Source: an uncultured bacterium (GTDB taxonomy: Bacteria; Fidelibacterota; Marinisomatia; Marinisomatales; UBA1611). Taken from it: a DNA stretch of 51,601 nt. Of the stretch, positions 24,519 through 37,826 are shown piece after piece; within the stretch, counting starts at the first letter, position 1; each line of letters begins with the position of its first letter. The stretch is taken from contig CAWVTW010000002.1 of NCBI GenBank assembly GCA_963933175.1, forward strand, positions 1-51,601, given 5' to 3'. The position numbers and the translations under genes are program-made. The notes below the pieces were generated by a model. The model saw nothing but the letters and a program-made list of their open reading frames with translations. It did not search any database and had not been told where the DNA came from.

Positions 24519-24553
24519 AAAAAAGCCATCTGTTTACTAGCGGATGGCTTTTT
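24519..24553. terminator. Bidirectional hairpin terminator (end of the oxidase operon)
   Basis: Stem aaaaagccatc / gatggcttttt, flanked by A-run and T-run so it works on both strands. Confidence 0.7.
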
Positions 24554-24577
24554 ATTAATATCTATTAAGTCTGCTTT

Positions 24578-25402
24578 CTACCAGTCGTCGTCGTCGCCAG
24601 ATTCTTCTTCAAGGTACTCTGCTTGTTCATCGAGCCAGGCCTGGTAGCCATCATCATCATGCACTGTGAAGAAGCCTCTCATACGATAGTGACCTAACCC
24701 ACAAAGCTGAGCACAGGTGACTTCCAATGATTTTCCTTCCCGTTTGGATCCGATAGTCGTTTTAAGAAACTCGTCCGATGTCATGGTAGCTGTGAAATGA
24801 ACAGGAATAACCATCCCCGGGATTATGTCTTGTTTTACTCGAAGTTCTGGCAAAGAAAAACTATGAATCACATCTAGGGATGTAAGATCAATTCGTATCT
24901 TTTTATTAACAGGTACATGCAATTGGTTTACTGTATAAAAATCATCTGATGCATTGTCGCTGGAACGATCTAAACCGACTGGGTTTTCCTGTTCATCTAC
25001 AAGATCAGCCCGTGTTTTACCAAATTTGCCATCAGGTCCAGGATAATGAAAATTCCAGGCAAATTGCTGTGCTACAACACGAAGATGAACAGATTCATAT
25101 GTGGATGGAACATCAGTGACTCGTGCTGCCCAAATTGGAAATCCGAATCCGAAAAGGATCACAATTTCAATCACAGCTACAACTGCTTCCAGTAAAGATG
25201 ACAAATGAGACTTGACGCCTATATAATCTGCTTTCGCATTTTTAGATGCACGGAATTTGACAAGACTGACTATAAAAAATGAACCCCAGCCTACGAACAA
25301 AACGAGCATTAACCAGTGGACAATTGCATTAATTTCATCAATAGCAGCGCCCTGCACCGACATATTGATGGGTAAACCTAGTTTATGGAGAATATCGATC
25401 AA
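24578..25402 (-). CDS. coxB: Cytochrome c oxidase subunit II (CuA, no fused cytochrome c domain), acidic ...GDDDDW C-terminus
   Basis: Two N-terminal TMs. CuA ligands in VIHSFSLPE and CAQLCGLGHYRM. Confidence 0.93.
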   Translation of the reverse strand: MIDILHKLGLPINMSVQGAAIDEINAIVHWLMLVLFVGWGSFFIVSLVKFRASKNAKADYIGVKSHLSSLLEAVVAVIEIVILFGFGFPIWAARVTDVPSTYESVHLRVVAQQFAWNFHYPGPDGKFGKTRADLVDEQENPVGLDRSSDNASDDFYTVNQLHVPVNKKIRIDLTSLDVIHSFSLPELRVKQDIIPGMVIPVHFTATMTSDEFLKTTIGSKREGKSLEVTCAQLCGLGHYRMRGFFTVHDDDGYQAWLDEQAEYLEEESGDDDDW

Positions 25403-25413
25403 AAGAAGATCCT

Positions 25414-25647
25414 CTACTGTTTATTCAATTTTTGAAAATTTTTGTCTTTTTTCCCGATCGAAATGATCGTACTGATTACGCCACCCAATACTCCACCTGT
25501 AACACCTAGCAATGTAATGATCGCCCAATTCATTCCTTGAGATGCCGGTGCACTTGGGTCGCCAAAACAAGTGGCACATGCATCAGCCGTCTCCGGAACA
25601 AATAATAGGATGAATAAAAGGATGATTATGTGAGTATTCTTATTCAT
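25414..25647 (-). CDS. Small membrane protein: signal peptide, CATC motif, C-terminal TM
   Basis: 77-aa ORF packed between cox genes with gaps of 3 and 11 nt. ADACATCFGDPSAP, then the TM WAIITLLGVTGGVLGGVISTII. Confidence 0.6.
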   Translation of the reverse strand: MNKNTHIIILLFILLFVPETADACATCFGDPSAPASQGMNWAIITLLGVTGGVLGGVISTIISIGKKDKNFQKLNKQ

Positions 25648-25650
25648 GAA

Positions 25651-25848
25651 TCAGATCTGTTTGAATTTTTTAACCACCGAAAATCCATAGACGATGAGCC
25701 CGGCAGCCACCATGAAAGAAATTGCTGCCAGCATGTTGGAAACAGTTCCGGGATTGGAAGGATGAGTCATTTCAAACACACCATAGTATCCGGTAATCAG
25801 AATAGAAACAGTAATAAAAAATAAGTGGAATTGTTTAAGAGAAATCAT
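25651..25848 (-). CDS. Small 2-TM membrane protein
   Basis: 65-aa ORF with a 4-nt ATGA overlap on the subunit IV gene. Confidence 0.55.
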   Translation of the reverse strand: MISLKQFHLFFITVSILITGYYGVFEMTHPSNPGTVSNMLAAISFMVAAGLIVYGFSVVKKFKQI

Positions 25849-26150
25849 GAAAGACTGGTATGGTCAATATAAGTGATCATGGGGATGAACATGCAAAACA
25901 GGAAAAAGATAAATGTCAGGGCTAAGAGCCAGATAATAGTTTGTTTTTCGGTAATGAGATGCATGAAATATCCCGCCACCAGGCTGGCTTTCACTGTTGC
26001 GATAGTCAAGGCTAAAAAGATGGCCTCTATTGTTGACACATTCAGGTAGGAGACTGCCACGGTTAAGAGTGTTAAGACTCCCAGGGCACCAAATACGGTT
26101 AAATAAACCTTAATGTGCTCTTGGATATGTCCGTTATCATGATCGCTCAT
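25845..26150 (-). CDS. Cytochrome c oxidase subunit IV (prokaryotic COX4 family)
   Basis: YLTVFGALGVLTLLTVAVS...ATVKASLVAGYFMHL pattern, with 3 TM. Confidence 0.8.
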   Translation of the reverse strand: MSDHDNGHIQEHIKVYLTVFGALGVLTLLTVAVSYLNVSTIEAIFLALTIATVKASLVAGYFMHLITEKQTIIWLLALTFIFFLFCMFIPMITYIDHTSLS

Positions 26151-26159
26151 TATTGTCCC

Positions 26160-26759
26160 CTAAAGTAAGTAAAGAATTGGGAAAAGGAAAATCCAGACAA
26201 GATCCACAAAGTGCCAGTAAAGTCCCGCAACCTCAATTCTGTTCGTAAATTGTTCAGGGTTGGAATGCCACATCTTATTCCCAAAAGGTAACCAGAAATA
26301 GCCCATAACAATCATACCACCGATTATGTGCAACATATGTAAACCAGTCAATGTAAAATAGATTCCCATGAATGTACTGGATGACGGGTAAATCCCATGG
26401 TGGAATTTTCCAGTGTATTCAAAGTATTTGACAATAAGAAATATAAATGCGCACAGGAGGGTAAGTCCCATATACATTTTATATTTTTCAAAATCTTTCA
26501 TTTTCAAAGATGCCCATGACATGATCACCGTTACACTCGATGAAATCAATACTAAGGTATTAAAAGTTGCCATAGGGATGCTCAATTTGGAACCCCAGTA
26601 GGCAAAGTCGCCTACTGGCGCTGCCATTCTCAAAAAAACATATGCAGAGAATAATCCGCCAAAAAGCATGATTTCGGAAGCCAGAAAAACCCAGATTCCA
26701 AGTTTAGAATTATTTAGACCTGTATCTGGTCTTTCTTCAATTGTGTATGGAATTTGCAC
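26160..26759 (-). CDS. coxC: Cytochrome c oxidase subunit III (short 5-TM form)
   Basis: LGIWVFLASEIMLFGGLFSAY, HMLHIIGG and LYWHFVDLVWIFLFP. Confidence 0.92.
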   Translation of the reverse strand: MQIPYTIEERPDTGLNNSKLGIWVFLASEIMLFGGLFSAYVFLRMAAPVGDFAYWGSKLSIPMATFNTLVLISSSVTVIMSWASLKMKDFEKYKMYMGLTLLCAFIFLIVKYFEYTGKFHHGIYPSSSTFMGIYFTLTGLHMLHIIGGMIVMGYFWLPFGNKMWHSNPEQFTNRIEVAGLYWHFVDLVWIFLFPILYLL

Positions 26760-26771
26760 CGTCAGAGTCCT

Positions 26772-28481
26772 TTATTTTTCTGTTTGCGGTGAGAAATCTT
26801 TATCTGCACCGGGAACACTATACTCATAAGGTCCTCGATACACTTCAACATCGCCTTCAAAGTTCGCATGGGGAAGGGGAGGAGAAGGCGCTGACCATTC
26901 AATGGTTGTTGCACCCCATGGATTCCGATCTACTTTTTCGCCATTAAACATGGAAATAAATATATTAATAATGAATGGAATCTGTGCTGCCGCAAGGCAG
27001 AAGGCGGAAATAGACATAAATTCATTCCATTGCAGTACATCCTGAGCATGAGCATAAAGTTGTCCACCATCATACAAACGGCGAGAGACGCCGGCAAGCC
27101 CTTGGATAAACATAGGCATAAAAATACCATTCATAAAAATGAGTGATGGCCAAAAGTGAAGTTTTCCCAGAGCTTCACTCATTCTTCTCCCTGTAATTTT
27201 AGGGAACCAATAATAGATTCCAGCAAAAAGGCCGAAGATAGTACCAGGTGCTACTACATAATGAAAGTGACCAATCACATAATAGGTATCATGAAGATGA
27301 ATATCCGATGCTCCTACACCCAGAGGGAGACCAGTTAAACCACCAATCCCAAACATGGGTAAAAATGCCAACGCAAATAACATGGGAGTTGTAAAACGGA
27401 TAGATGCTCCCCATAGTGAAAGGAAGAACGCAGTTAAAATTACAACCGATGGAATCGAAATAATCATGGTAGTTGTTTGAAAAAAAGCACTCATGGCCTG
27501 TCCCATTCCCGTAAGGAACATATGATGTGCCCAAACGACAAAGGACATAAAGCCAAGGAAAACGGTGGCATAGACTAAGGATTTATAACCCCAAAGAGGT
27601 TTCCGTGTATTGTTGGCAATCACTTCTCCCACTATTCCCATGGCAGGAAGAATCAACACATATACTTCCGGGTGAGCTAAGAACCAAAATAAATGCTGCC
27701 AAAGAAGGGGAGATCCAGAGCCATAAACATCAACGGGTGCGCCGCTGTAGACCAATCCGCTGGGCAAGAAAAAACTTGTATGAGCTACTCGATCCATTAA
27801 TTGGAGAACTGCAGCTGCTTCGAGGGGTGGGAAAGCAAGGACCAATAAAAAAGCAGTGACAAACTGTGCCCAAACAAAAAAGGGCAATCTAAACCAACTC
27901 AAACCAGGGGCACGGAGTTGAACAATGGTGACAATCATATTCATAGATCCAAGCAGGGAAGATGTAATTAAAAAGAGCATCCCGATAAGCCATGTAGTTT
28001 GACCGGTTTCAAAGATTGAGAGTGGTGGATAAGATGTCCATCCAGATCTTGCAGCACCTTCCGGCATGAAGAAACTTGTCAGCATGATCACCCCACCAAT
28101 AAAATAAGACCAGTAACTGGCAGCATTTAATTTTGGGAATGCCATATCAGGTGCACCAATCTGCAAAGGAACAATATAGTTTCCAAATGCACCGACAGCT
28201 AAAGGCACGATACCTAGGAAGATCATGATCGTCCCATGCATAGCGCCCAACATATTATAGATCTCAGGCATTAGAATACCTGTTTCACCTAATATGCCGC
28301 CGACAATTGGAACCGGTGTTTCTGGGTAGGCCAATTGCCATCTCATGACCATCATCAGGCAAAATCCAAAAAGCAGGAACAACAGCGAAGTAATCCCATA
28401 TTGGATGCCAATTATCTTATGGTCTACAGAAAAAATATATTTCTGTAAAAAATTCTCTTTGTGGTGAGAATCATTACTCAC
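26772..28481 (-). CDS. coxA: Cytochrome c oxidase subunit I (A-type haem-copper oxidase)
   Basis: WFLAHPEVYVLILP, VWAHHMF and HDTYYVIGHFHYV haem/CuB ligand motifs. Confidence 0.98.
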   Translation of the reverse strand: MSNDSHHKENFLQKYIFSVDHKIIGIQYGITSLLFLLFGFCLMMVMRWQLAYPETPVPIVGGILGETGILMPEIYNMLGAMHGTIMIFLGIVPLAVGAFGNYIVPLQIGAPDMAFPKLNAASYWSYFIGGVIMLTSFFMPEGAARSGWTSYPPLSIFETGQTTWLIGMLFLITSSLLGSMNMIVTIVQLRAPGLSWFRLPFFVWAQFVTAFLLVLAFPPLEAAAVLQLMDRVAHTSFFLPSGLVYSGAPVDVYGSGSPLLWQHLFWFLAHPEVYVLILPAMGIVGEVIANNTRKPLWGYKSLVYATVFLGFMSFVVWAHHMFLTGMGQAMSAFFQTTTMIISIPSVVILTAFFLSLWGASIRFTTPMLFALAFLPMFGIGGLTGLPLGVGASDIHLHDTYYVIGHFHYVVAPGTIFGLFAGIYYWFPKITGRRMSEALGKLHFWPSLIFMNGIFMPMFIQGLAGVSRRLYDGGQLYAHAQDVLQWNEFMSISAFCLAAAQIPFIINIFISMFNGEKVDRNPWGATTIEWSAPSPPLPHANFEGDVEVYRGPYEYSVPGADKDFSPQTEK

Positions 28482-28520
28482 GTGATTTCTCCGATGTTAA
28501 TTAAATTAGTTAAGAATCGT

Positions 28521-28847
28521 TCAGTCTATTGCTAGACCATAATTTTTTTCAAAAACATCCGTTCCAAGCATTCGTATTGCATCCCAAGTCATCTTAGTAC
28601 ATACACGGGCGCAAACTTGACAACCTGTACATTCATTAAAACGAACCTGAACCGGTGGGATAAGAACTTCATATTTATCCTTTGCTACTGGTTCTATGCA
28701 ATCCACGGGGCAAAACGGCACACATACTTGACAACCTGTGCAATTATCTTCATCAACAACTGCCATGAGTTTCGGACGTTTTGTTTTTTCTCGAGGAACG
28801 TCCGGTAGATCTGGAATTCCTTTAAAATGATTATATTTGTTTGCCAT
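28521..28847 (-). CDS. 2x[4Fe-4S] ferredoxin-type protein
   Basis: CTGCQVCVPFCP and CTGCQVCARVC cluster motifs. No signal peptide. Confidence 0.88.
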   Translation of the reverse strand: MANKYNHFKGIPDLPDVPREKTKRPKLMAVVDEDNCTGCQVCVPFCPVDCIEPVAKDKYEVLIPPVQVRFNECTGCQVCARVCTKMTWDAIRMLGTDVFEKNYGLAID

Positions 28848-29699: not shown

Positions 29700-30410
29700 A
29701 TGAAGCTTAAGAAATTAATCATCAGCGGAATTGCCTTGACTGTTGCAATCGCATTTGTGGATGCTGGTACCTTAAAAGGCCACGTGAAATTCGATGGAAA
29801 AGCTCCGAAATCAAAAAGGTTAAAAATGAATGCAGATCCAGTTTGTGGTGCATCCCACTCAGGCCCGGTCTATAGTGAGAGTTTTAAAATGGCAGCTGAT
29901 GGCTCTATGGCAGAAGCAATTGTTTATTTAAAGAATGTTTCTTATTCCGGTGGTTCACCTGCAGATCCTGTGGTTTTAGATCAAAAGGGCTGTATTTATA
30001 ATCCCCATGTATTAGGGATGGTTGCAGGACAAGAACTGCTGATTAAAAACAGTGACGCTACGTTGCATAATATCCACTCCAGACCCAATGTGAATAAAGA
30101 ATTTAATTTTGCTATGCCGAAAGTAGTAAAAGAAAAAAAAGCATCTTTTTCAAAATCTGAACCAGAACCATTTTACATTAAATGTGATGTGCATCCCTGG
30201 ATGAAAGCTTGGGTCTTGGTTTCAGATCATCCTTATTTTGCAGTTACAGATTCGAATGGGAATTTCTCCATTGATGGCATTCCAGCTGGGTCTTATGAAG
30301 TGGTTTGCTGGCAGGAAAAATTCAAAAAAATGCCATTGACTGCAACTGTAACCGTTGGTGATGGTGAAACAATAAAAGATTTTACTTTTACCCGTCCGAA
30401 GAAAAAGTAA
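29700..30410 (+). CDS. Secreted cupredoxin-like protein with carboxypeptidase-regulatory-like segments
   Basis: Signal peptide. Candidate type-1 Cu ligands LHNIHS ... CDVHPWM, with the same C-x2-H-x2-M spacing as the amicyanin loop. TDSNGNFSIDGIPAGSYEV beta-sandwich motif. Confidence 0.75.
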   Translation: MKLKKLIISGIALTVAIAFVDAGTLKGHVKFDGKAPKSKRLKMNADPVCGASHSGPVYSESFKMAADGSMAEAIVYLKNVSYSGGSPADPVVLDQKGCIYNPHVLGMVAGQELLIKNSDATLHNIHSRPNVNKEFNFAMPKVVKEKKASFSKSEPEPFYIKCDVHPWMKAWVLVSDHPYFAVTDSNGNFSIDGIPAGSYEVVCWQEKFKKMPLTATVTVGDGETIKDFTFTRPKKK

Positions 30411-30476: not shown

Positions 30477-31316
30477 ATGAAAAAGAAAATATTATTTTTA
30501 TCAATCTTCATCGCATATAATTGCAGTGCCCCGGAAAAAGTATATCCTGTAAAGGGGGCAGTTTATGAGATCAAACCGGATTCCATGATGATCGTTATTG
30601 CACATGATACAATTCCTGATCTTATGTATCCCATGGTCATGCCCTTTGATTTGAAAGATCTGAACGAGATCAATGGCTTGTCTATCGGTGATAGCGTTCA
30701 TTTTGAATTTGTTTGGGGCGATACATCCACGTGGGCTCGGAAGTTTAAAGTTGTAGGTCAGGGGAAATTGCCGGAGGATGAGGAGGATGATTTTTTCGAA
30801 GATGAAGAATATGCCAAAAGAGAGATTGGTGAAATACTGGACGATGTGAGTTTTTTGAACTTAGATAGCTCAAAAGTTCGATTGTCAAATTCCGATGGGA
30901 GATACCGGTTTTTGTCTTTTATTTTTACACGGTGCCCTATGCCCACCATGTGCCCTGCCGTGGTAATTAAGAATGATTATTTGGTAAAATCCTTTAAAGA
31001 TCGAAATGATATTGAATTTGTTATGGTCAGTTTTGATTATAAATATGATACTCCAAGAGTTTTAAAAGATTTTTATGGCTCGACCATTAGCGATCATGAT
31101 AATTGGAAAGTATGGTCAAGTACGGATCATATTGAAGATGTATATCGTCTAGCCAAACAAAGTGGTTGCAACTTTTGGGGAATTGAAGAAAACAAAATTG
31201 GCCACACACTTAGGTCTATTTTAATAGGTCCCAACCGTGAGGTATTAGGCTACTGGCTCGGCGACAATTGGAAAGCAAAAAACGTGAAAACTGCAATTGA
31301 ATTGTTAATGAAATAA
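30477..31316 (+). CDS. CusF-like Cu(I)-binding domain fused to an SCO1/SenC thioredoxin-fold domain
   Basis: N-terminal HDTIPDLMYPMVMPFDL (CusF-like His/Met motif). C-terminal FIFTRCPMPTMCP (SCO-like; the two Cys are separated by 5 residues). Confidence 0.78.
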   Translation: MKKKILFLSIFIAYNCSAPEKVYPVKGAVYEIKPDSMMIVIAHDTIPDLMYPMVMPFDLKDLNEINGLSIGDSVHFEFVWGDTSTWARKFKVVGQGKLPEDEEDDFFEDEEYAKREIGEILDDVSFLNLDSSKVRLSNSDGRYRFLSFIFTRCPMPTMCPAVVIKNDYLVKSFKDRNDIEFVMVSFDYKYDTPRVLKDFYGSTISDHDNWKVWSSTDHIEDVYRLAKQSGCNFWGIEENKIGHTLRSILIGPNREVLGYWLGDNWKAKNVKTAIELLMK

Positions 31317-31390: not shown

Positions 31391-31426
31391 AAAAAAGCCA
31401 TCCACTTTCAGGTGATTGGCTTTTCT
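31391..31426. terminator. Imperfect bidirectional hairpin between convergent genes
   Basis: aaaaaagccatccac / gtgattggctttt with 2 mismatches. T-runs on both strands. Confidence 0.55.
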
Positions 31427-31449
31427 AATTTTAAATATAAAATAGGTTT

Positions 31450-34431
31450 CTACCAGTCCTCGTCGTCACCCCAATCGTCTTCATCTTCGTCTCCACCAAA
31501 ATCATAACCATTTTCATCAAAATAATCTTTTATAATTGCATCAATATTTGTGTTACCTTTGATTTTCCACATATAATCTCTCAACCCATTAAGCATTCTT
31601 GTTGTATCACCTTCAAGAACGACAAGAGCTTTACCCCAATCATTTTCAGCTCCATCAGCGGATAGAAGTTCACTATCTGGCAGATAAGGTGCAGGCATTT
31701 TCGTTCCCGGCATTATATCTGATGGATTATAAAGCCATTCTCTAACCCAATCAGGATTGAGGCGTTCTTTTGTCATGGCTAAGTTAGGAGCCCAAGTAGG
31801 AGCATCTCCGGTTGGAAATTCTTCTCCATAAAAGTGACAACTATTACACTGACCAAATTCATGTAATTTCACTCCAGCTTTAAAATCCATTGATTTTTCA
31901 TCAACAACTAAGTCACTTCTGTAAGATATCTTTTCATTATCTATATGCTTAAAATATGCTATTATAGCGTCCCACTCTTCATCTGGAATTTGATGAAAAC
32001 TTGGCATTTTAACTTGAAGGTTTGGCCTAATAATTCCAGGATTATTTAAAAATGATAGTAGCCAGTCTGGATTTGCCTTTTTACCTTCAGTATTTAAATT
32101 GGGTGGTGCATACTCAGATGCTCCAATAACATCAATTAATTGACCGCCACGATTTTGAATCAAATGACATCCTTGACAGTTATATTGTTTTACAAGACGA
32201 TGGCCTTTCTTATAGTTATCAGGATCTTTAAGATAAGCGAGTAATGGTTCAGCAACAATATTTGCATTAAATGATAATACAGCCGTAGTAATTGCTTCTA
32301 TTTCTTCTTCAGAGAAATAGAAATTAGGCATTTTCAGTAAATCTAAATGTTTACTCTCTTTTCCTCGATCATAAATTCTTGGGGTCCTGAGTTTGTTTTC
32401 TATCCAAGCATAATTAGTATGTTCAATATCATGGAATAGCCCAAAATCAAACTTATTTACTGGTTTAGATCCTTCTTCGGTGATTTCTACACCAATTGGT
32501 TTTGCAGTTTCAAAGCCATCAATATTATGACATCCAAAACAACCATAATGACGAATGCTTTTTTCACCAATATAATCTAGTTTATCTTTAAGATCCATTT
32601 TTTCAGCTTTGGCTAGCGCATATTTTTCAGGATTTGATTTTTTTAGCCAATTAATAGTGAGATCATTAAGGACTGAATCATCATAGGAATGATTTGGTGT
32701 CTGTTCAAATTCTAAATTTCTATTATTTAGTAGATATGCAGTAAGATCTTTTGCCTGTTGAGGCTCGAGTCTTAGGTTTGGCATTTTAGTCGTGGGCATA
32801 TATTCCTGAGGATTCATTAGCCAATTATATAACCACTTAGATGAAACTTTAGATCCTAATCCAATGAGGTTTGGTCCATGTACTTTAGTTAAATTATAAT
32901 AATTACTAATGGGCGGTGCTTCTGATGGATCAATTTCCGAAATATGACAGCCCATACACCCAATTGCATTAAATAATTTTTCTCCTTCTTTGGCATTGCC
33001 TAAAAAGCGGGAACTATTTCTTTCAATCTCTTTTTTGTTTCCATTAAATAAGTACTCAGTTATCCCTGCAATTTCTACATCATTATATTCACTGATTTCT
33101 TCTGTTTCTTGGTTATCCTGCTCAAAAATTGATGGCATGCGCGTGTTGTATCGGAAATGCCTTGGGTTTTTTACCCATTTTGCAACCCATTCTCTGTCTA
33201 ATTTTTGATTTATTTTTGTTAAATCAGGACCAGATTTTGTCTGACTTGCCCAGTCTGAATTATAATGGCAACCATTGCAACCTGCTTTATCAACAAGGGA
33301 TAATCCAAAATTCAATTTGTCAGCACCAGCTAAATCACTTGTATTTGAGTGGCATTTGAAACAACTTGCCTCCGTATATTTAGTTGGGAGCATTGGGGTC
33401 AGCCAGTGGTGCATAACCTCCCAATCATATTCTTCCTGCCAACGTTCTTTTTCGTCATCATTACTTGGTGTGTGCGTAGATGATACAAATGACGTTCCCC
33501 GTCCACGCCCAGCATGGCAACTGGTGCAACCAAAGGTATCCATGGGGTGCGAAGAAGCAGATGTAATATATAGATCTAAATTAGGATGAGTAGTATAGGG
33601 TTGGGGTGCATCAGCAAAGTCAGGGTTTTCGATTCCCAAATGACAACTGGTACAACGATCCACTTTGGGAACCACCGCAAAGTTCACATCATACTTCACA
33701 TCGCGAACCACAACTTGTTTTACCTTATAATAAGGATCTAAAAAGTCAATGATAGGTAGGTCTCGAACAACATCTCCAATTTTATTAGTGAAGGTCATTC
33801 GCTCACGGTCTATTTTACTGAGTTTAGTATCAGCAATTGTTACATCTTTCAAAACGATATTGAGTTTTTCTATCTTTAGCTTAACATTTGCTTTCAGATC
33901 TTTGAGAGCTTTTTCAGTATCACCGATCTCTATCTCGGATGCTTCCTTGATGAGTTGGTACTTATGAAGTAATTCCAAAGCTGCCGCATAATCATCTTTA
34001 TGAGATGGACCGTGATTTTCACCATCATCCTGGTGTGAATTTTCTGCTTCAACGAGATATTTAAGTCCATCTACTTCAGCCTTTTGGCCTTGATAGATCA
34101 TATTCTCATTATAGTACCGGCCTTTCAGTGTGGTTAAGGTAGTTTTAAGTTCAGCCAATTTCTCATTTTGAGAATTTAACCTGGATTGGGCATCAGCTAA
34201 TTCCTTTTCATAAGAAACACGCTCAGTTGCAACCGCGTTCTTTTCTTTTTCAAGATTCTTTTCTGCGATTCCAATTTCCATTTTACGGAATTCACGCTGA
34301 TAAACTTTGAATTCATCATCATTATCATCAACAAAGGTCCACGCCATACTGATCAAAAACAGGATCGATGATATGGCGAACCATTTATTTAATTTTTGAA
34401 TATCCCAATAGCGTTCGTCGTTATTAAACAT
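31450..34431 (-). CDS. Membrane-anchored octahaem cytochrome c (TM, about 175-aa coiled-coil region, 3-haem module, five class-I-like monohaem modules, acidic ...DDEDW tail)
   Basis: Eight CxxCH motifs, with Cys at aa 260, 302, 357, 385, 492, 631, 752 and 862 by my count. The last five are each followed by a (K/R)MP motif. Confidence 0.9.
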   Translation of the reverse strand: MFNNDERYWDIQKLNKWFAISSILFLISMAWTFVDDNDDEFKVYQREFRKMEIGIAEKNLEKEKNAVATERVSYEKELADAQSRLNSQNEKLAELKTTLTTLKGRYYNENMIYQGQKAEVDGLKYLVEAENSHQDDGENHGPSHKDDYAAALELLHKYQLIKEASEIEIGDTEKALKDLKANVKLKIEKLNIVLKDVTIADTKLSKIDRERMTFTNKIGDVVRDLPIIDFLDPYYKVKQVVVRDVKYDVNFAVVPKVDRCTSCHLGIENPDFADAPQPYTTHPNLDLYITSASSHPMDTFGCTSCHAGRGRGTSFVSSTHTPSNDDEKERWQEEYDWEVMHHWLTPMLPTKYTEASCFKCHSNTSDLAGADKLNFGLSLVDKAGCNGCHYNSDWASQTKSGPDLTKINQKLDREWVAKWVKNPRHFRYNTRMPSIFEQDNQETEEISEYNDVEIAGITEYLFNGNKKEIERNSSRFLGNAKEGEKLFNAIGCMGCHISEIDPSEAPPISNYYNLTKVHGPNLIGLGSKVSSKWLYNWLMNPQEYMPTTKMPNLRLEPQQAKDLTAYLLNNRNLEFEQTPNHSYDDSVLNDLTINWLKKSNPEKYALAKAEKMDLKDKLDYIGEKSIRHYGCFGCHNIDGFETAKPIGVEITEEGSKPVNKFDFGLFHDIEHTNYAWIENKLRTPRIYDRGKESKHLDLLKMPNFYFSEEEIEAITTAVLSFNANIVAEPLLAYLKDPDNYKKGHRLVKQYNCQGCHLIQNRGGQLIDVIGASEYAPPNLNTEGKKANPDWLLSFLNNPGIIRPNLQVKMPSFHQIPDEEWDAIIAYFKHIDNEKISYRSDLVVDEKSMDFKAGVKLHEFGQCNSCHFYGEEFPTGDAPTWAPNLAMTKERLNPDWVREWLYNPSDIMPGTKMPAPYLPDSELLSADGAENDWGKALVVLEGDTTRMLNGLRDYMWKIKGNTNIDAIIKDYFDENGYDFGGDEDEDDWGDDEDW

Positions 34432-34439
34432 GCATAAAC

Positions 34440-35558
34440 CTAAATATTAAAAAACCATTCTGGAATTGCGATAATGTATTTGAGGTTGAAAAACCACCGG
34501 AGATACATCTTGATGGGCAATGAAAACATAGATAGTCCAAAAAGCATTAATGTTGTATATCGGATTGGACCTATTTTTTCAAATAGATCCTTTAGCCATG
34601 TTTTTGCTAAGAGGATAGGGAAGACGAACATGTAGGCAAACACCACCAGAAATCCCATAAATTCCCTTAACATGATATTTGCGGGTAATCCTGTGCTGAG
34701 CATTTTTACCCATAAATATTCAGAAAGATTAACGTTGTTCAATGGAACTACTTTATGGGGGTCCCAATATTCAAAGGGTCCGAAGAAATTCCAATTTGGT
34801 CCACGGAAGAATGTTCCAATTACGATTAAGAAAAGCCATAAAATGAGCCAGCCATACATAAAAATAAAAATGCCGATCCGCCGTTCTTTAAAGGAATAAT
34901 ACCCGTCCCCTTTGGGATTTGTATCCATGTAAGGAATAGCCATCATTCCGAATATGATGAACATAGGGAAAACAATTCCAGCCAACCACGGATCGAAATA
35001 AACTAGCATTTCTTGGAGTCCAAGAAAATACCAAGGTGCTTTGGATGGATTTGGCGTTGATGCCGGATTTGCTGGCTCTTCCAATGGTGCAGCAACCAAG
35101 ATTGACCAAACTATCAAGAAGACCATAAATAAAATTAGAGCAATGAATTCAATATAAACCAAGTCCGGCCACACCAGAACTTTATCATCTGGGTCATTAT
35201 ATTCTTCGGGTTTCAAGCCTTCTGCCAACCTGCCATCATTGATGTACGCTTTCTTCATTCCCAGCCAAATGTAGAAAAACATGGAATAAACCATTAGTAC
35301 AATCGGAAAGTTATCCGGCTTTGTAAGGGTAATATTAAAGTTTGGATCGAAATAACCAACTATAAAGAAAAAAGTGATGAATCCCATTCCAGCCCAAAGC
35401 CCGGGCTTTGTCCATAGTCTCCATATCCCCAATTTACGATTCAATTTATCAAACCAATCTGTTGGTGGAAAAATGAGAGGTGTTAAAAGGGTTAAAAGTG
35501 TAAAACTGACAGTGGGAGCTGAAAGTGTGTCAATTACAGATTTAAATGTTTCAATCAT
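34440..35558 (-). CDS. Cytochrome b6f subunit IV-like protein (cytochrome b C-terminal domain) with extra TMs
   Basis: EEPANPASTPNPSKAPWYFLGLQEML aligns with the PetD EPANPFATPLEILPEWYF region. About 8 TM against 3 in PetD. Confidence 0.85.
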   Translation of the reverse strand: MIETFKSVIDTLSAPTVSFTLLTLLTPLIFPPTDWFDKLNRKLGIWRLWTKPGLWAGMGFITFFFIVGYFDPNFNITLTKPDNFPIVLMVYSMFFYIWLGMKKAYINDGRLAEGLKPEEYNDPDDKVLVWPDLVYIEFIALILFMVFLIVWSILVAAPLEEPANPASTPNPSKAPWYFLGLQEMLVYFDPWLAGIVFPMFIIFGMMAIPYMDTNPKGDGYYSFKERRIGIFIFMYGWLILWLFLIVIGTFFRGPNWNFFGPFEYWDPHKVVPLNNVNLSEYLWVKMLSTGLPANIMLREFMGFLVVFAYMFVFPILLAKTWLKDLFEKIGPIRYTTLMLFGLSMFSLPIKMYLRWFFNLKYIIAIPEWFFNI

Positions 35559-35577
35559 AAGAATCTCAAATCAGTGT

Positions 35578-36372
35578 TTATAGAGGCCCGGAGATTCCGC
35601 CATCTTTTCGGATGCGCCAGAAATGTACGGCCAGGAATATCATCATAATAAAGGGTACGGCAATACAGTGAAGCACGTAAAACCGAAGGAGTGTAGCTTC
35701 ACCCACGAATCTGCCACCCAATAATGCAAAGCGCACGTCTGAACCCATATGGACCAAATTAATATCTCCAATTGCAAGCAAAGAAGCACCTGGCCCTTCA
35801 TGACCAATAAAGGGATGTGCCCTTGCCATATTTGTACCTACGGTGACTGCCCAAATTGCCAATTGATCCCAAGGAAGAAGGTAGCCAGTGAAGGATAAAA
35901 ACATAGTCAAAGTCATGAGCAGCACTCCAACACCCCAATTAAATTCACGTGGTGGTTTGTAAGAACCGGTCATAAAAACGCGAAGCATATGTAACCAAAC
36001 AGTTAAGACCATAGCATGAGCACCCCAGCGATGAAGTTCTCGCATCATACCCAAGGGTACTTGCTCTGTGAGATCTATAATATCTGTGTAGGCATATTCC
36101 ACTGTGGGCCGGTAATAGAACATAAGCAGAATTCCTGTAATTGTGAGGACCACGAACAGGAAGAATGAAAGTCCACCCATACACCATGTATAGCCAACCT
36201 TAACAGCATGTTTTGGTAATCGAGCAGGATGGAGGTGTAAAAAAACACTTCCAAGAATTGCATGCATCCTCTGGCGCCTAGTATGTGGTACACCAGATCG
36301 AATGATGGATTTCCAAACCTGAGATTCACCCATCTGCTCTAAAAATGATTTTTGTTTATTGTCTTTTGCCAT
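35578..36372 (-). CDS. Cytochrome b6-like protein (cytochrome b N-terminal domain)
   Basis: [35 protein letters not shown] and [16 protein letters not shown]. Ends in ...GISGPL, as cytochrome b6 does. Confidence 0.94.
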
Positions 36373-36390
36373 TGTACCTAGATTGATTGA

Positions 36391-36945
36391 TTAAACTACC
36401 AAGAATGATTCAGAATTCTCCCACTCGCCTTTTTCCCATTTAAAACTTTTTGTTTTATCAACGAGAATTTGTCCGTCATTTGAAAGAGATACTTTATATC
36501 TTTCCAATGGACGGGGTGCTGGCCCTTCGAAATGAATTCCAGTCATCCGAAAACCGCTTCCGTGACACGGACATTTAAATTTTCCTTCTGTTCGTAGCCA
36601 ATTTGGTGTACATCCTAAATGGGTACAAACTGTGGAGAGAGCAAAGATAGATTCTTCATCTCTAACCACCCAAATATTAAATGATTTTTTATATCGGATA
36701 TCCACTGTATTTGTTGCATAATCATTCGGAAACCCAATTTTTAATGTTTGAGGCGGTTCAAATAATACATTTGGGAAAAGAAACCGTATCATCACAGTAA
36801 AAAATCCACCAGTTGCGCCGGCAAAAGCTATCCATCCTAGGGACAACCATTTAAAAAAACCACGCCGACCCATTTCTTTTCCATTTTCAGAATTCTGGGT
36901 GGATGTACCTACTGATGCGGTTGGGGTGTTTTTTTCTTCACTCAT
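36391..36945 (-). CDS. Rieske [2Fe-2S] protein
   Basis: Tat-like GRRGFFKWL, a TM anchor, and CTHLGC ... CPCHGS. Confidence 0.93.
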   Translation of the reverse strand: MSEEKNTPTASVGTSTQNSENGKEMGRRGFFKWLSLGWIAFAGATGGFFTVMIRFLFPNVLFEPPQTLKIGFPNDYATNTVDIRYKKSFNIWVVRDEESIFALSTVCTHLGCTPNWLRTEGKFKCPCHGSGFRMTGIHFEGPAPRPLERYKVSLSNDGQILVDKTKSFKWEKGEWENSESFLVV

Positions 36946-36947
36946 AA

Positions 36948-37826
36948 TTATATAACTTTGTTGTACGCAGATTGTAATGTTTTCATGGCAGCATCTCGAA
37001 TCCGAAGATTCTCATCAGTTTTAGCTAACGAAACTAATTTTGTTTTGAATTGATCCTGTTTTAACAGGGACGAGACTTCAATCGCCACAAGAATCACTTG
37101 ATTTTTTTCTGCTTCATCCACTTGGGGAAAAGCATTTAAATATTGTCTGTCCATAAGGCTTTCAATGATGAATGCACCGGATGGATCCCCCATCTTGGCT
37201 AAAGCAACGGCTGCATCCCATTGAATATTTGGCTCTTCATCCTCTAATAATTTTTTCAATAATGGGATGGATTCTGGATTGCCTATCAATCCCATGGAAA
37301 TAGTGGCCGCGAGTTTCTCATCGAGAAAATCAGAATTTTCAACAATCTCTTTTAATTTGTTTGACGCATTATTTGCACCTATCAACCCAACAGCCTGTAT
37401 TGCAGCTCGCCGTGATTCACGGTTTTCATCATTTAATCCATCAACCAATATTTCGGAATAAAATTTATCCCCGGTAACACCCATGGCCAAAGCTAAATAT
37501 GCCCTTACAAGAGGATCATCATGAATAGAATGATTATAAATTGAAACCATTTGATTTTTAAATGAAAGATTTGTGGGAATTTTATCCGGGTTGTTAAACA
37601 CTTTTGATAGTTCAAATGCAGATTGCCAGCGTTTGGAAGCAGAGCCGATCTTTACTTGGTTTAAAAGGGCTGAAGCATCAGTTGTTTCAAAGGTAATGAA
37701 ACGAAACAATAGAAAGAAAACAGCACCAAAAATAGCGATCATAAAGGGGATCAGGAAAAAAGAATAAAAAAGGGTATAGATCCTGGTTGATTCTTTTTTA
37801 GATAATTGTGTTGCGTTTTCGTTCAT
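36948..37826 (-). CDS. TM-anchored HEAT-repeat (PBS-lyase-like) protein
   Basis: N-terminal TM, then repeated helical-pair motifs (RRAAIQAVGLIG; IPLLKKLLEDEEPNIQWDAAVALAKMGDP; IRDAAMKTL). Ends 2 nt before the Rieske start. Confidence 0.75.
   Translation of the reverse strand: MNENATQLSKKESTRIYTLFYSFFLIPFMIAIFGAVFFLLFRFITFETTDASALLNQVKIGSASKRWQSAFELSKVFNNPDKIPTNLSFKNQMVSIYNHSIHDDPLVRAYLALAMGVTGDKFYSEILVDGLNDENRESRRAAIQAVGLIGANNASNKLKEIVENSDFLDEKLAATISMGLIGNPESIPLLKKLLEDEEPNIQWDAAVALAKMGDPSGAFIIESLMDRQYLNAFPQVDEAEKNQVILVAIEVSSLLKQDQFKTKLVSLAKTDENLRIRDAAMKTLQSAYNKVI

What the first reader, a model, noticed from the sequence alone, without database searches (positions are those of the whole stretch)
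24578..24625. Matching acidic ...D(D/E)DW-stop tails on CoxB and on the octahaem cytochrome
CoxB ends ...EEESGDDDDW-TAG. The octahaem cytochrome (3-prime end at 31450-31497) ends ...GGDEDEDDWGDDEDW-TAG. Both C-termini belong to periplasmic redox domains. The DNA across the stop is also alike: 24571-24598 against 31443-31470 is 23/28 identical by my alignment, including tttctaccagtc. CoxB has no fused cytochrome c, and no small soluble cytochrome c is encoded nearby. Between the two operons sits a secreted, Lys-rich cupredoxin ending in RPKKK. The tails may therefore be docking elements for a shared basic shuttle, or a supercomplex or sorting tag.
Basis: partly seen in the sequence, partly recalled or inferred. 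Interest (0 to 1): 0.65.

Follow-up and report, generated by a model that had tools for sequence, protein, structure and literature searches.

The report
Shared acidic-tryptophan tails on respiratory enzymes
In the ocean bacterial group Marinimicrobia, several unrelated respiratory enzymes end in the same short acidic tail finishing with tryptophan, and the copper protein encoded between them ends in a lysine tail, so the tails probably act as a common docking tag for one electron carrier, though no binding was tested.

Summary
CoxB ends in EEESGDDDDW-stop and the octahaem cytochrome c ends in DEDEDDWGDDEDW-stop. The DNA match is 23/28, but it only reflects coding for the same peptide.

In the source genome (a Marinimicrobia/SAR406 MAG) these are the only 2 of 1987 long ORFs that end in [DE]3W. 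Most close CoxB homologues carry a doubled unit, DDDDWGDDDW.

A scan of about 186,000 species genomes for [DE]3-W-G-[DE]3-W-stop gave 98 loci. About 96 are Marinimicrobia, and nearly all are CoxB or the multihaem cytochrome.

Relatives carry the tail on two more periplasmic redox proteins: a Tat-exported NarG-like molybdoenzyme and a NapC/NirT tetrahaem cytochrome.

An amicyanin-like cupredoxin always sits between the two operons. It is the only basic periplasmic protein of the cluster. It ends in RPKKK-type tails in 65 of 68 orthologues.

Distant families of the phylum lack the acidic tails, and their cupredoxin homologues mostly lack the basic tail.

Best reading, inferred and not shown: the tails are disordered electrostatic docking tags for the cupredoxin shuttle. 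No description turned up in the searchable literature.

The parts
24578..24625 (-). CoxB C-terminal tail ...QAEYLEEESGDDDDW plus TAG stop. This is the one-unit form of the acidic-Trp tag.
   Evidence: The AF2 model has a helix at 250-268, then GDDDDW (269-274) with pLDDT below 50. Of 120 close homologues, 101 have two units and 19 have one.
24578..25402 (-). coxB: A-type haem-copper oxidase subunit II with two TM helices and a periplasmic CuA cupredoxin domain. No fused cytochrome c.
   Evidence: Pfam COX2. NCBIfam CoxB. PDB sequence matches to Rhodobacter and Paracoccus subunit II. The CuA motif H...CAQLCGLGHYRM is read.
31450..31497 (-). Octahaem cytochrome C-terminal tail ...GGDEDEDDWGDDEDW plus TAG stop. 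This is the two-unit acidic-Trp tag.
   Evidence: The tail is conserved in multihaem orthologues of only 38-60% identity. It is absent in family f21, where the whole ~30-aa extension is missing.
31450..34431 (-). 993-aa membrane-anchored octahaem cytochrome c. It is the last gene of the HEAT-Rieske-cytochrome b-subunit IV operon.
   Evidence: 8 CxxCH motifs. Pfam Cytochrom_C, Cytochrome_CBB3 and multihaem families. Synteny.
29700..30410 (+). Secreted amicyanin-like cupredoxin with type 1 Cu ligands H123, C162, H165 and M168, joined to a CarboxypepD_reg-like beta-sandwich. It is the candidate shuttle and the candidate receptor of the tails.
   Evidence: AF2 pLDDT 88.9. Foldseek top hits are amicyanin, pseudoazurin and plastocyanin. 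PDB phmmer finds amicyanin at E about 0.007 with the ligands aligned. NCBIfam amicyanin scores below cutoff. It lies between the two operons wherever the loci cover that stretch. Mature pI is 9.0.
30393..30410 (+). Polybasic C-terminal tail RPKKK plus stop of the cupredoxin.
   Evidence: 65 of 68 orthologues have at least 3 K/R in the last 5 residues, against 27 of 1093 other ORFs in the same loci. The tail is mostly absent in the distant families f22-f29.
25414..28847 (-). The rest of the oxidase operon: ferredoxin, coxA, coxC, coxD and two small membrane ORFs. coxB comes last.
34440..37826 (-). The rest of the Rieske/cytochrome b operon: HEAT-repeat membrane protein, Rieske protein, cytochrome b and a subunit IV-like protein.
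   Evidence: The soluble part of the HEAT protein has pI 5.2.
30477..31316 (+). CusF-Sco fusion protein, a likely copper chaperone, next to the cupredoxin.
   Evidence: Pfam CusF_Ec and SCO1-SenC. Often syntenic.

Best explanation
The tail [D/E]3-4-W, often doubled as DDDW-G-DDDW-COOH, is a short disordered C-terminal tag. One class-level lineage of Marinimicrobia has placed it on the periplasmic ends of unrelated respiratory proteins that must exchange electrons with a soluble carrier:
- CoxB of the aa3-type oxidase;
- the octahaem cytochrome of the Rieske/cytochrome b complex;
- in relatives, a periplasmic NarG-like molybdoenzyme and a NapC/NirT quinol dehydrogenase.

The most likely partner is the amicyanin-like cupredoxin encoded between the operons. 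It is basic and carries the opposite tail, RPKKK-COOH.

Proposed mechanism (inferred): the flexible acidic tail captures the basic carrier by long-range electrostatics. The terminal Trp adds a hydrophobic or cation-pi contact, possibly at the hydrophobic patch around the exposed Cu ligand or against the Lys tail. This raises the local concentration of carrier and the encounter rate at both donor and acceptor while keeping binding weak and fast.

Shown: the sequence pattern, its specificity, its conservation, the synteny, the charge complementarity and the fold of the cupredoxin.

Inferred: that the cupredoxin is the shuttle, that tail and cupredoxin bind each other, and that binding speeds electron transfer.
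For: - **Specificity in the source genome.** Only CoxB and the multihaem cytochrome among 1987 ORFs of 100 aa or more end in [DE]3W.
- **Specificity in relatives.** In six near-complete relatives, every [DE]3W-stop ORF of 100 aa or more is CoxB, the multihaem cytochrome, the NarG-like enzyme or the NapC/NirT cytochrome; the reversed-pattern control gave 0 hits. In 301 genomes of the class, all 14 long ORFs ending in [DE]W[DE][DE]W-stop are the NarG-like enzyme (8), CoxB (5) or the multihaem cytochrome (1).
- **Lineage restriction.** The double-unit pattern in all GTDB species genomes gave 98 loci, about 96 of them Marinimicrobia.
- **Conservation at protein level.** Codons vary synonymously. 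The tail persists where the multihaem cytochrome is only about 40% identical.
- **Gained on unrelated proteins.** NarG-like enzymes end in GDDEW, GGDEWDEW or GGDDWDW in the tailed lineage, but in IDMKE in family f22.
- **The partner.**
  - The cupredoxin is syntenic.
  - It has the fold and ligands of amicyanin.
  - Its mature pI is 9.0, while CoxB, the multihaem cytochrome, Sco and the HEAT protein have pI 4.5-5.4.
  - It has a polybasic tail in 65 of 68 orthologues.
- **Co-variation.** Families f22-f29 lack acidic tails on CoxB and the NarG-like enzyme, and their cupredoxin homologues mostly lack the Lys tail. Across 59 loci the tail charges correlate (Spearman -0.43, not phylogenetically corrected).
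- **No rival carrier.** No small basic cytochrome c is present in the genome.
- **Fusions.** In metagenomes CoxB occurs fused to this cupredoxin family (P0209, 46% identity) and to other type 1 Cu domains.
- **Disorder.** The CoxB tail tip is predicted disordered.
Against: - No binding or electron-transfer data exist, and no complex could be modelled with these tools.
- **Counter-examples.** One complete genome (L162/G186) has both acidic tails but a cupredoxin ending in GPQKN. In family f21 CoxB keeps a W tail while the multihaem cytochrome has none and the cupredoxin tails are weak.
- The co-variation rests on few independent evolutionary events.
- Most loci were selected by the tail pattern itself, so the motif frequencies are biased.
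- The fusion P0209 is a singleton on a 2-kb metagenome contig.
- The Lys tail could instead hold the cupredoxin on the anionic membrane surface.
- The octahaem cytochrome might pass electrons to CuA directly in a supercomplex, without any shuttle.
Confidence: 0.5

Rival explanations
1. The tails are assembly or tethering tags that hold the Rieske/cytochrome b complex, the oxidase and other enzymes together in a supercomplex. They would bind a common scaffold or each other's subunits rather than a mobile carrier. Electrons would then pass directly from the last haem of the octahaem cytochrome to CuA.
For: The same tag sits on donor and acceptor complexes encoded side by side. The octahaem cytochrome ends in monohaem class I domains that could reach CuA, as the dihaem QcrC does in actinobacterial CIII2CIV2 supercomplexes (established knowledge; weak NCBIfam similarity to QcrC). 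A conserved HEAT-repeat membrane protein of unknown role belongs to the operon.
Against: Four different carriers, including a soluble Tat-exported molybdoenzyme and a NapC/NirT protein, are hard to fit into one fixed supercomplex. The soluble part of the HEAT protein is acidic, pI 5.2, and so is a poor receptor for an acidic tail. Family f21 keeps the CoxB tail but has lost the multihaem tail. No basic scaffold other than the cupredoxin appears in the cluster.
Confidence: 0.2
2. The tails act on their own protein or on its surroundings rather than on a protein partner. They might bind divalent cations (Ca2+, Mg2+), park the Trp at the membrane interface, tune the local surface potential near the redox centre, or protect the C-terminus from periplasmic tail-specific proteases.
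For: Asp-rich stretches bind Ca2+ and Mg2+, which are abundant in seawater, and Trp favours membrane interfaces (general knowledge). More distant CoxB relatives outside the lineage also carry shorter acidic-aromatic ends such as DDFW, DPFW or NNDDW, one of them in a Verrucomicrobia MAG, without any known link to this cupredoxin.
Against: This does not explain why only electron-exchanging respiratory proteins carry the tag. It does not explain the syntenic carrier's opposite tail. It does not explain why the acidic and basic tails are largely absent from the same distant families.
Confidence: 0.15
3. The tail is a C-terminal sorting or processing signal that is recognised and perhaps removed by an export, anchoring or maturation system.
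For: The strictly terminal position and the nearly invariant last residue W resemble recognition of C-terminal aromatic residues by PDZ proteases and by the BAM machinery (general knowledge). CoxB of Rhodobacter is C-terminally processed (recalled, not checked here).
Against: There is no hydrophobic helix or basic cluster as in PEP-CTERM, LPXTG or GlyGly-CTERM signals, and no T9SS beta-sandwich domain. No Pfam or NCBIfam sorting-signal model matches. The carriers already reach the periplasm by different routes (a Sec membrane anchor and Tat). No dedicated sorting enzyme is seen in the cluster.
Confidence: 0.05
4. The tails are functionless low-complexity ends produced by triplet slippage of GAY repeats.
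For: The number of units varies between near-identical homologues, 1 or 2 and once 3. This points to slippage as the mutational source.
Against: The terminal W and the W-G spacing are kept across families. The codons vary synonymously. Four unrelated protein families carry the tail, and no long ORF outside the respiratory set does.
Confidence: 0.03

Closest known systems
Acidic 'hinge' protein (QCR6/UQCRH) and the acidic surfaces of cytochrome c1 and COX subunit II that dock basic cytochrome c in mitochondria and proteobacteria
   Same: Negative charge sits next to the redox centres of both complex III and complex IV. A single basic soluble carrier is steered to both by electrostatics. Disordered poly-acidic stretches are involved.
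   Different: Here the charge is packed into a short portable C-terminal tag that ends in Trp. The tag is identical on unrelated proteins. The carrier is a cupredoxin with its own opposite tail, not cytochrome c. No separate hinge subunit exists.
The Lys-rich N-terminal extension of PsaF in eukaryotic photosystem I, which docks acidic plastocyanin or cytochrome c6
   Same: A terminal extension added to a membrane complex, whose charge is complementary to a cupredoxin carrier and speeds electron transfer.
   Different: The charges are reversed. PsaF's extension is a folded helix-loop-helix, not a 6-13 residue disordered tag. It sits on one complex only.
Pseudospecific docking of pseudoazurin and amicyanin (a Lys ring around a hydrophobic patch) onto several acidic partners in Paracoccus, such as cd1 nitrite reductase, N2O reductase and cytochrome c peroxidase
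   Same: One basic cupredoxin serves several periplasmic redox enzymes through generic electrostatic and hydrophobic contacts. The cupredoxin here has the amicyanin-type C-x2-H-x2-M loop.
   Different: In Paracoccus the acidic docking surfaces belong to the folded partners. Here a common linear tail would supply them, and the cupredoxin has an extra beta-sandwich domain and a KKK tail.
Cupredoxin donors to aa3-type oxidases: AcoP and rusticyanin in Acidithiobacillus, halocyanin in haloarchaea, sulfocyanin in Sulfolobus
   Same: A type 1 copper protein replaces cytochrome c as the donor to CuA, and its gene is linked to the oxidase genes.
   Different: None of these systems, to my knowledge and in the searched literature, uses matching terminal tails.
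Eukaryotic acidic-tryptophan short linear motifs, such as the WASP acidic region that binds Arp2/3 and the acidic W motifs that bind COPI subunits
   Same: An acidic run plus a Trp anchor in a disordered tail. The motif is multivalent through repeats and binds basic pockets weakly and reversibly.
   Different: This is an analogy only. The compartment, the partners and the evolutionary origin are unrelated.

Membership tests
A-type haem-copper oxidase subunit II (CoxB, CuA-containing) | Two N-terminal TM helices followed by a periplasmic cupredoxin domain | tested here: met
   AF2 helices at 16-52 and 67-96, then a beta domain. Pfam COX2. PDB sequence matches to Rhodobacter and Paracoccus subunit II.
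A-type haem-copper oxidase subunit II (CoxB, CuA-containing) | CuA ligands H, C-x3-C-x3-H-x2-M, and the electron-entry Trp | tested here: met
   HSFSLPE ... CAQLCGLGHYRM is present. The W of AQQFAWNFHYP aligns with the WYW of the Rhodobacter and Paracoccus subunits.
Type 1 copper cupredoxin (amicyanin/pseudoazurin type) | Greek-key beta-sandwich fold | tested here: met
   AF2 model with pLDDT 88.9. Foldseek hits to amicyanin, pseudoazurin and plastocyanin, probability 1.0 and target TM-score 0.56-0.72.
Type 1 copper cupredoxin (amicyanin/pseudoazurin type) | The His, Cys, His, Met ligand set with a C-x2-H-x2-M loop | tested here: met
   H123, C162, H165 and M168 are invariant in 30 orthologues and align with the amicyanin ligands. 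NCBIfam amicyanin scores 24.8 bits against a cutoff of 110, so the protein is not an equivalog.
Type 1 copper cupredoxin (amicyanin/pseudoazurin type) | Binds copper and shuttles electrons between the bc-type complex and the oxidase | not testable with these tools
   Inferred from synteny, the absence of a basic cytochrome c and CoxB-cupredoxin fusions.
Known C-terminal sorting signals (PEP-CTERM, LPXTG, GlyGly-CTERM, T9SS CTD) | A signature motif followed by a hydrophobic helix and a basic cluster, or an ~80-aa beta-sandwich CTD | tested here: not met
   The tail has 6-13 acidic residues, W and G, and no hydrophobic segment. No Pfam or NCBIfam model matches it.
Electrostatic docking element for a soluble electron carrier (functional class, as in QCR6 or PsaF) | Charge complementary to the carrier, placed next to the redox domain on the carrier's side of the membrane | tested here: met
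   The tail follows the CuA domain and the last haem domain, both periplasmic. The tail has 8 D/E and 0 K/R, and the carrier has pI 9.0 and a KKK end.
Electrostatic docking element for a soluble electron carrier (functional class, as in QCR6 or PsaF) | Physical binding, and a rate enhancement that depends on ionic strength | not testable with these tools
   No multimer modelling or experiment was available.
Type II DMSO reductase family alpha subunit (periplasmic Nar/Nxr-like), the third tail carrier, in relatives | Tat signal, molybdopterin domain, and neighbouring beta (4Fe-4S), delta and haem gamma (EB_dh) genes | tested here: met
   Pfam and NCBIfam hits for L212 and L163. The RREFLK twin-arginine motif is read.

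The most novel reading that the evidence does not exclude
Marinimicrobia may use a portable linear 'wiring code' in the periplasm. Any redox enzyme that acquires the C-terminal tag [D/E]3W(G[D/E]3W) would be plugged into the same KKK-tailed cupredoxin pool. Branched respiratory chains (oxygen, nitrate and others) would then be wired by short tags instead of by co-evolved folded surfaces. The number of tag units (1 to 3 or more) would tune affinity.
Probability: 0.35. Interest if true: 0.75.

Novelty: new variant of a known kind. Interest (0 to 1): 0.62.

Why it matters
Electron carriers must find several partners quickly and leave them quickly. The textbook solution is complementary charged patches on folded surfaces. 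This lineage, among the most abundant in the dark ocean and in oxygen-minimum zones, seems to have moved that function into a 6-13 residue tag shared by the oxidase, the bc-type complex, a nitrate reductase-like enzyme and a quinol dehydrogenase.

If confirmed, three things follow:
- It would be a bacterial example of short-linear-motif recognition organising a respiratory chain.
- It would identify the missing link (a cupredoxin, not cytochrome c) between complex III and complex IV in an uncultured phylum.
- It would give a simple sequence marker for finding other members of the same electron-transfer network, and a small tag that could be tried for wiring redox enzymes in engineered systems.

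Tried and rejected
- **DNA-level homology of the two 3' ends (gene conversion or a mobile cassette).** Rejected. Identity is confined to the shared codons and the stop, and only AAA is shared after it. Across 98 loci the codons vary synonymously.
- **HEAT-repeat subunit as tail receptor.** Disfavoured, because its soluble part is acidic, pI 5.2.
- **A small basic cytochrome c as the true partner.** None was found among the CxxCH ORFs of the 85%-complete genome.
- **Another basic-tailed secreted protein in the cluster.** None recurs in 133 loci.
- **A known sorting signal.** No Pfam or NCBIfam match.
- **Literature on such tails.** Four full-text searches found nothing relevant. The library lacks most subscription journals.
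- **Modelling a tail-cupredoxin complex.** Not possible. The structure tool folds single chains only and accepts only unmodified sequences. The natural fusion P0209 was not submitted, because the tool returns no inter-domain geometry.
- **Taxonomy of more distant tailed CoxB clusters.** Mostly unnamed metagenome proteins.
Full report
**1. Observation**

On the minus strand, window 24578-25402 encodes a 274-aa CoxB that ends ...AWLDEQAEYLEEESGDDDDW-TAG. Window 31450-34431 encodes a 993-aa cytochrome that ends ...GYDFGGDEDEDDWGDDEDW-TAG. The cytochrome has eight CxxCH motifs.

CoxB has the CuA ligands and no fused cytochrome c domain.

The matches fall in six shared codons (16/18) and the TAG stop (3/3). 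Only 4 of 7 bases match after the stop. The nucleotide likeness therefore follows from the shared peptide and is not separate evidence.

**2. More than chance**

The window lies in a 1.74-Mb, 288-contig assembly with 38.7% G+C. Source names given to near-identical proteins place it in Marinimicrobia, also called SAR406, Neomarinimicrobiota or Fidelibacterota.

- Of 1987 stop-to-stop ORFs of at least 100 aa, exactly two end in [DE]3W, and they are these two.
- Only one further ORF ends in [DE]2 plus an aromatic residue.
- From the frequency of terminal W (24/1987) and of D/E, about 0.04 such ORFs would be expected (my rough estimate).

**3. Conservation**

The 120 closest CoxB homologues (83-100% identity) all keep the tail. 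Of these, 101 carry two units (for example DDDDWGDDDW) and 19 carry one, as in the window. The CoxB tail is thus normally the same two-unit motif as on the octahaem cytochrome. The number of units varies even between 99%-identical proteins.

I scanned one genome per prokaryotic species (GTDB, 596 Gb) for the DNA pattern [DE]3-W-G-[DE]3-W-stop. This gave 98 loci.
- About 96 are Marinimicrobia.
- The exceptions are a hit that does not end at a stop codon (L025) and a 64-aa ORF in an Acutalibacteraceae MAG (L048).
- The carriers are CoxB (about 280 aa, plus a 365-379-aa variant with an insertion), the ~1000-aa multihaem cytochrome, and one 185-aa lipoprotein-like ORF.
- For random sequence I estimate well under one hit.
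- Codons within the tails vary freely between synonyms: GAT/GAC and GGT/GGA/GGC. Selection therefore acts on the peptide.

**4. An unbiased sample**

Most of those loci were chosen by the motif itself. I therefore fetched 20-kb regions around the cupredoxin gene in 20 genomes from other families of the phylum.

- CoxB keeps an acidic end with a terminal W in all families of the class: EDDEDW, EEEEEEEW, EDDWEDW, GDDDWW.
- The multihaem cytochrome keeps it everywhere except family f21. There the protein stops about 30 residues earlier (...RDYIYSVGEK).
- In the distant families f22 and f27, CoxB is of another type and ends ...NENWPES, without the tail.

**5. Further carriers**

In locus L163 a 1172-aa Tat-exported molybdoenzyme of the type II DMSO reductase family, NarG/NxrA-like, ends ...TIGDDEW.
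- Its orthologues in some twenty genomes of the tailed lineage end in GDDEW, GEDEW, GGDEWDEW, GGDDWDW or REAWGW.
- Those of family f22 end in ...IDMKE, and one f21 member ends in ...VETES.

A 202-aa NapC/NirT-family tetrahaem cytochrome, encoded 8 kb downstream of such an enzyme, ends ...EEEQIDEDW.

In six near-complete genomes, every [DE]3W-stop ORF of at least 100 aa is one of four proteins: CoxB, the multihaem cytochrome, the NarG-like enzyme or this NapC/NirT cytochrome. The other hits are ORFs of 6-22 codons. The reversed pattern gave no hits.

In 301 genomes of the class, the 14 long ORFs ending in [DE]W[DE][DE]W-stop are the NarG-like enzyme (8), CoxB (5) and the multihaem cytochrome (1).

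Within 133 fetched loci, 63 of 86 CoxB-class ORFs and 51 of 59 multihaem ORFs end in [DE]2W. Only two of the other 1567 ORFs do, the L012 lipoprotein-like ORF and the L163 NarG-like enzyme.

The tag is therefore specific to periplasmic proteins that hand over or receive electrons.

**6. The candidate partner**

A gene homologous to window 29700-30410 lies between the Rieske/cytochrome b operon and the oxidase operon wherever the loci cover that stretch.

- The protein has a signal peptide and a central domain with H123, C162, H165 and M168 invariant in a C-x2-H-x2-M loop.
- An AF2 model (pLDDT 88.9) has amicyanin, pseudoazurin and plastocyanin as its best structural matches.
- Sequence search of the PDB also finds amicyanin with the ligands aligned.
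- The C-terminal part is a CarboxypepD_reg-like beta-sandwich.
- The mature protein has pI 9.0. The CoxB periplasmic domain (5.4), the multihaem cytochrome (5.1; its last haem domain 4.5), the Sco protein (4.9) and the soluble part of the HEAT subunit (5.2) are all acidic.
- Its last residues are (R/K)P(K/S/A)KKK in almost every orthologue. 65 of 68 have at least three K/R among the last five residues, against 27 of 1093 other ORFs. No other secreted family in these loci has such an end.
- The genome holds no small basic c-type cytochrome.

**7. Co-variation**

Families f22, f24, f27 and f29 lack the acidic-W ends on CoxB and on the NarG-like enzyme. Their cupredoxin homologues mostly end without a Lys run...DAKFSPA...KADAKFSS...DFTIQ. 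A few have weaker basic ends such as KPKGK.

Across 59 loci, the positive charge of the cupredoxin end and the negative charge of the acidic ends correlate (Spearman -0.43, p about 6e-4). This figure is not corrected for phylogeny and rests largely on motif-selected loci.

Counter-examples exist:
- The complete genome G186 (L162) has both acidic tails and a cupredoxin ending in GPQKN.
- In f21, CoxB keeps a W end while the multihaem tail is missing and the cupredoxin ends are weakly basic or neutral.

**8. Fusions and wider relatives**

Among representatives of 50%-identity clusters related to CoxB:
- One protein (P0209) is CoxB, then an acidic linker, then a cupredoxin 46% identical to the window's.
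- Two others are fused to different type 1 Cu domains.

These fusions support cupredoxins as donors to this CoxB clade. Each is a single metagenome sequence, so they are weak evidence.

Many more distant CoxBs carry shorter acidic-aromatic ends: DDFW, DPFW, DEDDF and NNDDW, the last in a Verrucomicrobia MAG. One has several D-W-G repeats. The Marinimicrobia tag may therefore be an elaboration of an older habit of this CoxB clade.

**9. Anatomy of the tail**

In the AF2 model of CoxB, the canonical domain ends in a helix (250-268...AWLDEQAEYLEEES). GDDDDW follows with pLDDT below 50. In some families a further 30-40-residue helical linker precedes the tail. In the multihaem cytochrome an amphipathic segment (...DVSxIVKxHLxxEGYGF...) precedes it. 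The tag is thus a flexible tip on a tether of variable length.

**10. Interpretation**

The best-supported reading is that the tag is a docking element for the basic cupredoxin. It would work by electrostatic capture, with the terminal Trp as a hydrophobic or cation-pi anchor. This step is inferred.

Rivals:
- A supercomplex or scaffold tag. This fits poorly with a soluble Tat enzyme and a NapC protein as carriers, and the only extra subunit, the HEAT protein, is acidic.
- A cation-binding, membrane-interface or protease-protection role. This does not explain the specificity or the opposite tail on the carrier.
- A sorting signal. It has no features of the known ones and matches no model.
- Neutral low complexity. 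Conservation contradicts this.

**11. Comparison with what is known**

The principle is that of cytochrome c docking on acidic surfaces of complexes III and IV, helped by the acidic hinge protein. It is also that of the Lys-rich PsaF extension that docks plastocyanin, and of the pseudospecific docking of pseudoazurin and amicyanin to several partners. These comparisons rest on my own knowledge of those systems.

What differs is the form: one short linear C-terminal tag, identical on unrelated enzymes, paired with an opposite tail on the carrier. Four full-text searches found no description of it. The library misses most subscription journals.

That is a repeat of the idea, not independent evidence.

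**12. Verdict**

- It is a new variant of a known kind of system.
- Interest is moderate to high.

Noticed in passing
own genome contig C71, minus strand, 226-aa ORF (not in the window): A multi-TM membrane protein ends in a long acidic run with one Trp near the end, ...YYYDDDEDDEDDEDDEDDEDWDEEDADE. It is the most acidic C-terminus in the genome but does not end in W. Its function and topology are unknown.
   Followed up: partly
window 24578-24625, compared with close homologues P0001-P0120: The number of GDDDW units differs (1 or 2) between CoxB proteins that are 99% identical, and one relative (L070) has 3. This suggests frequent gain and loss by triplet slippage within populations.
   Followed up: partly
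L163:1175-4693 (-) and L212:1400-15183: Some relatives carry a periplasmic NarG/NxrA-like gene cluster. It comprises a Tat molybdoenzyme, a 4Fe-4S subunit, a delta chaperone, an EB_dh-cytochrome c fusion, a second Rieske/cytochrome b pair with an octahaem cytochrome, and a NapC/NirT protein, next to a KKK-tailed cupredoxin. The source genome of the window lacks it.
   Followed up: partly
L012:1895-2452 (+): A 185-aa lipoprotein-like ORF (lipobox LLTAGCS) with no family match ends in GEDDDDDWGDEDW. Its neighbourhood shows no respiratory genes in the 8 kb held.
   Followed up: partly
window 29700-30410 (alignment A1): Beyond the four Cu ligands, the cupredoxin family has two invariant cysteines (C49 in DADPVC and C98 in DQxGC) and an invariant W167 beside the ligand loop. 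The cysteines could form a disulfide or a second site.
   Followed up: no
window 24520-24577 and 31395-31449: Both tailed genes are followed by terminator-like hairpins with similar stems and a T run (AAAGCCATC...GATGGCTTTTTT and AAAGCCAATCAC...GTGGATGGCTTTTTT). I read this from the sequence and did not test it against chance.
   Followed up: no
window 25414-25848 (-): Two small membrane ORFs (65 aa and 77 aa, the latter with a CATC motif after a signal peptide) lie between coxD and coxB. A gap of the same size is kept in relatives.
   Followed up: no
L243, L244, L245: A 34-codon ORF ending in ...AEWEEW recurs in three genomes of families f4/g30. It is probably a chance frame inside another gene, but I did not check.
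   Followed up: no
P0209 (metagenome protein, 451 aa): A natural fusion of CoxB, an acidic linker and a cupredoxin of the window's family. It is a single sequence on a 2-kb contig, so a chimeric assembly cannot be excluded.
   Followed up: partly
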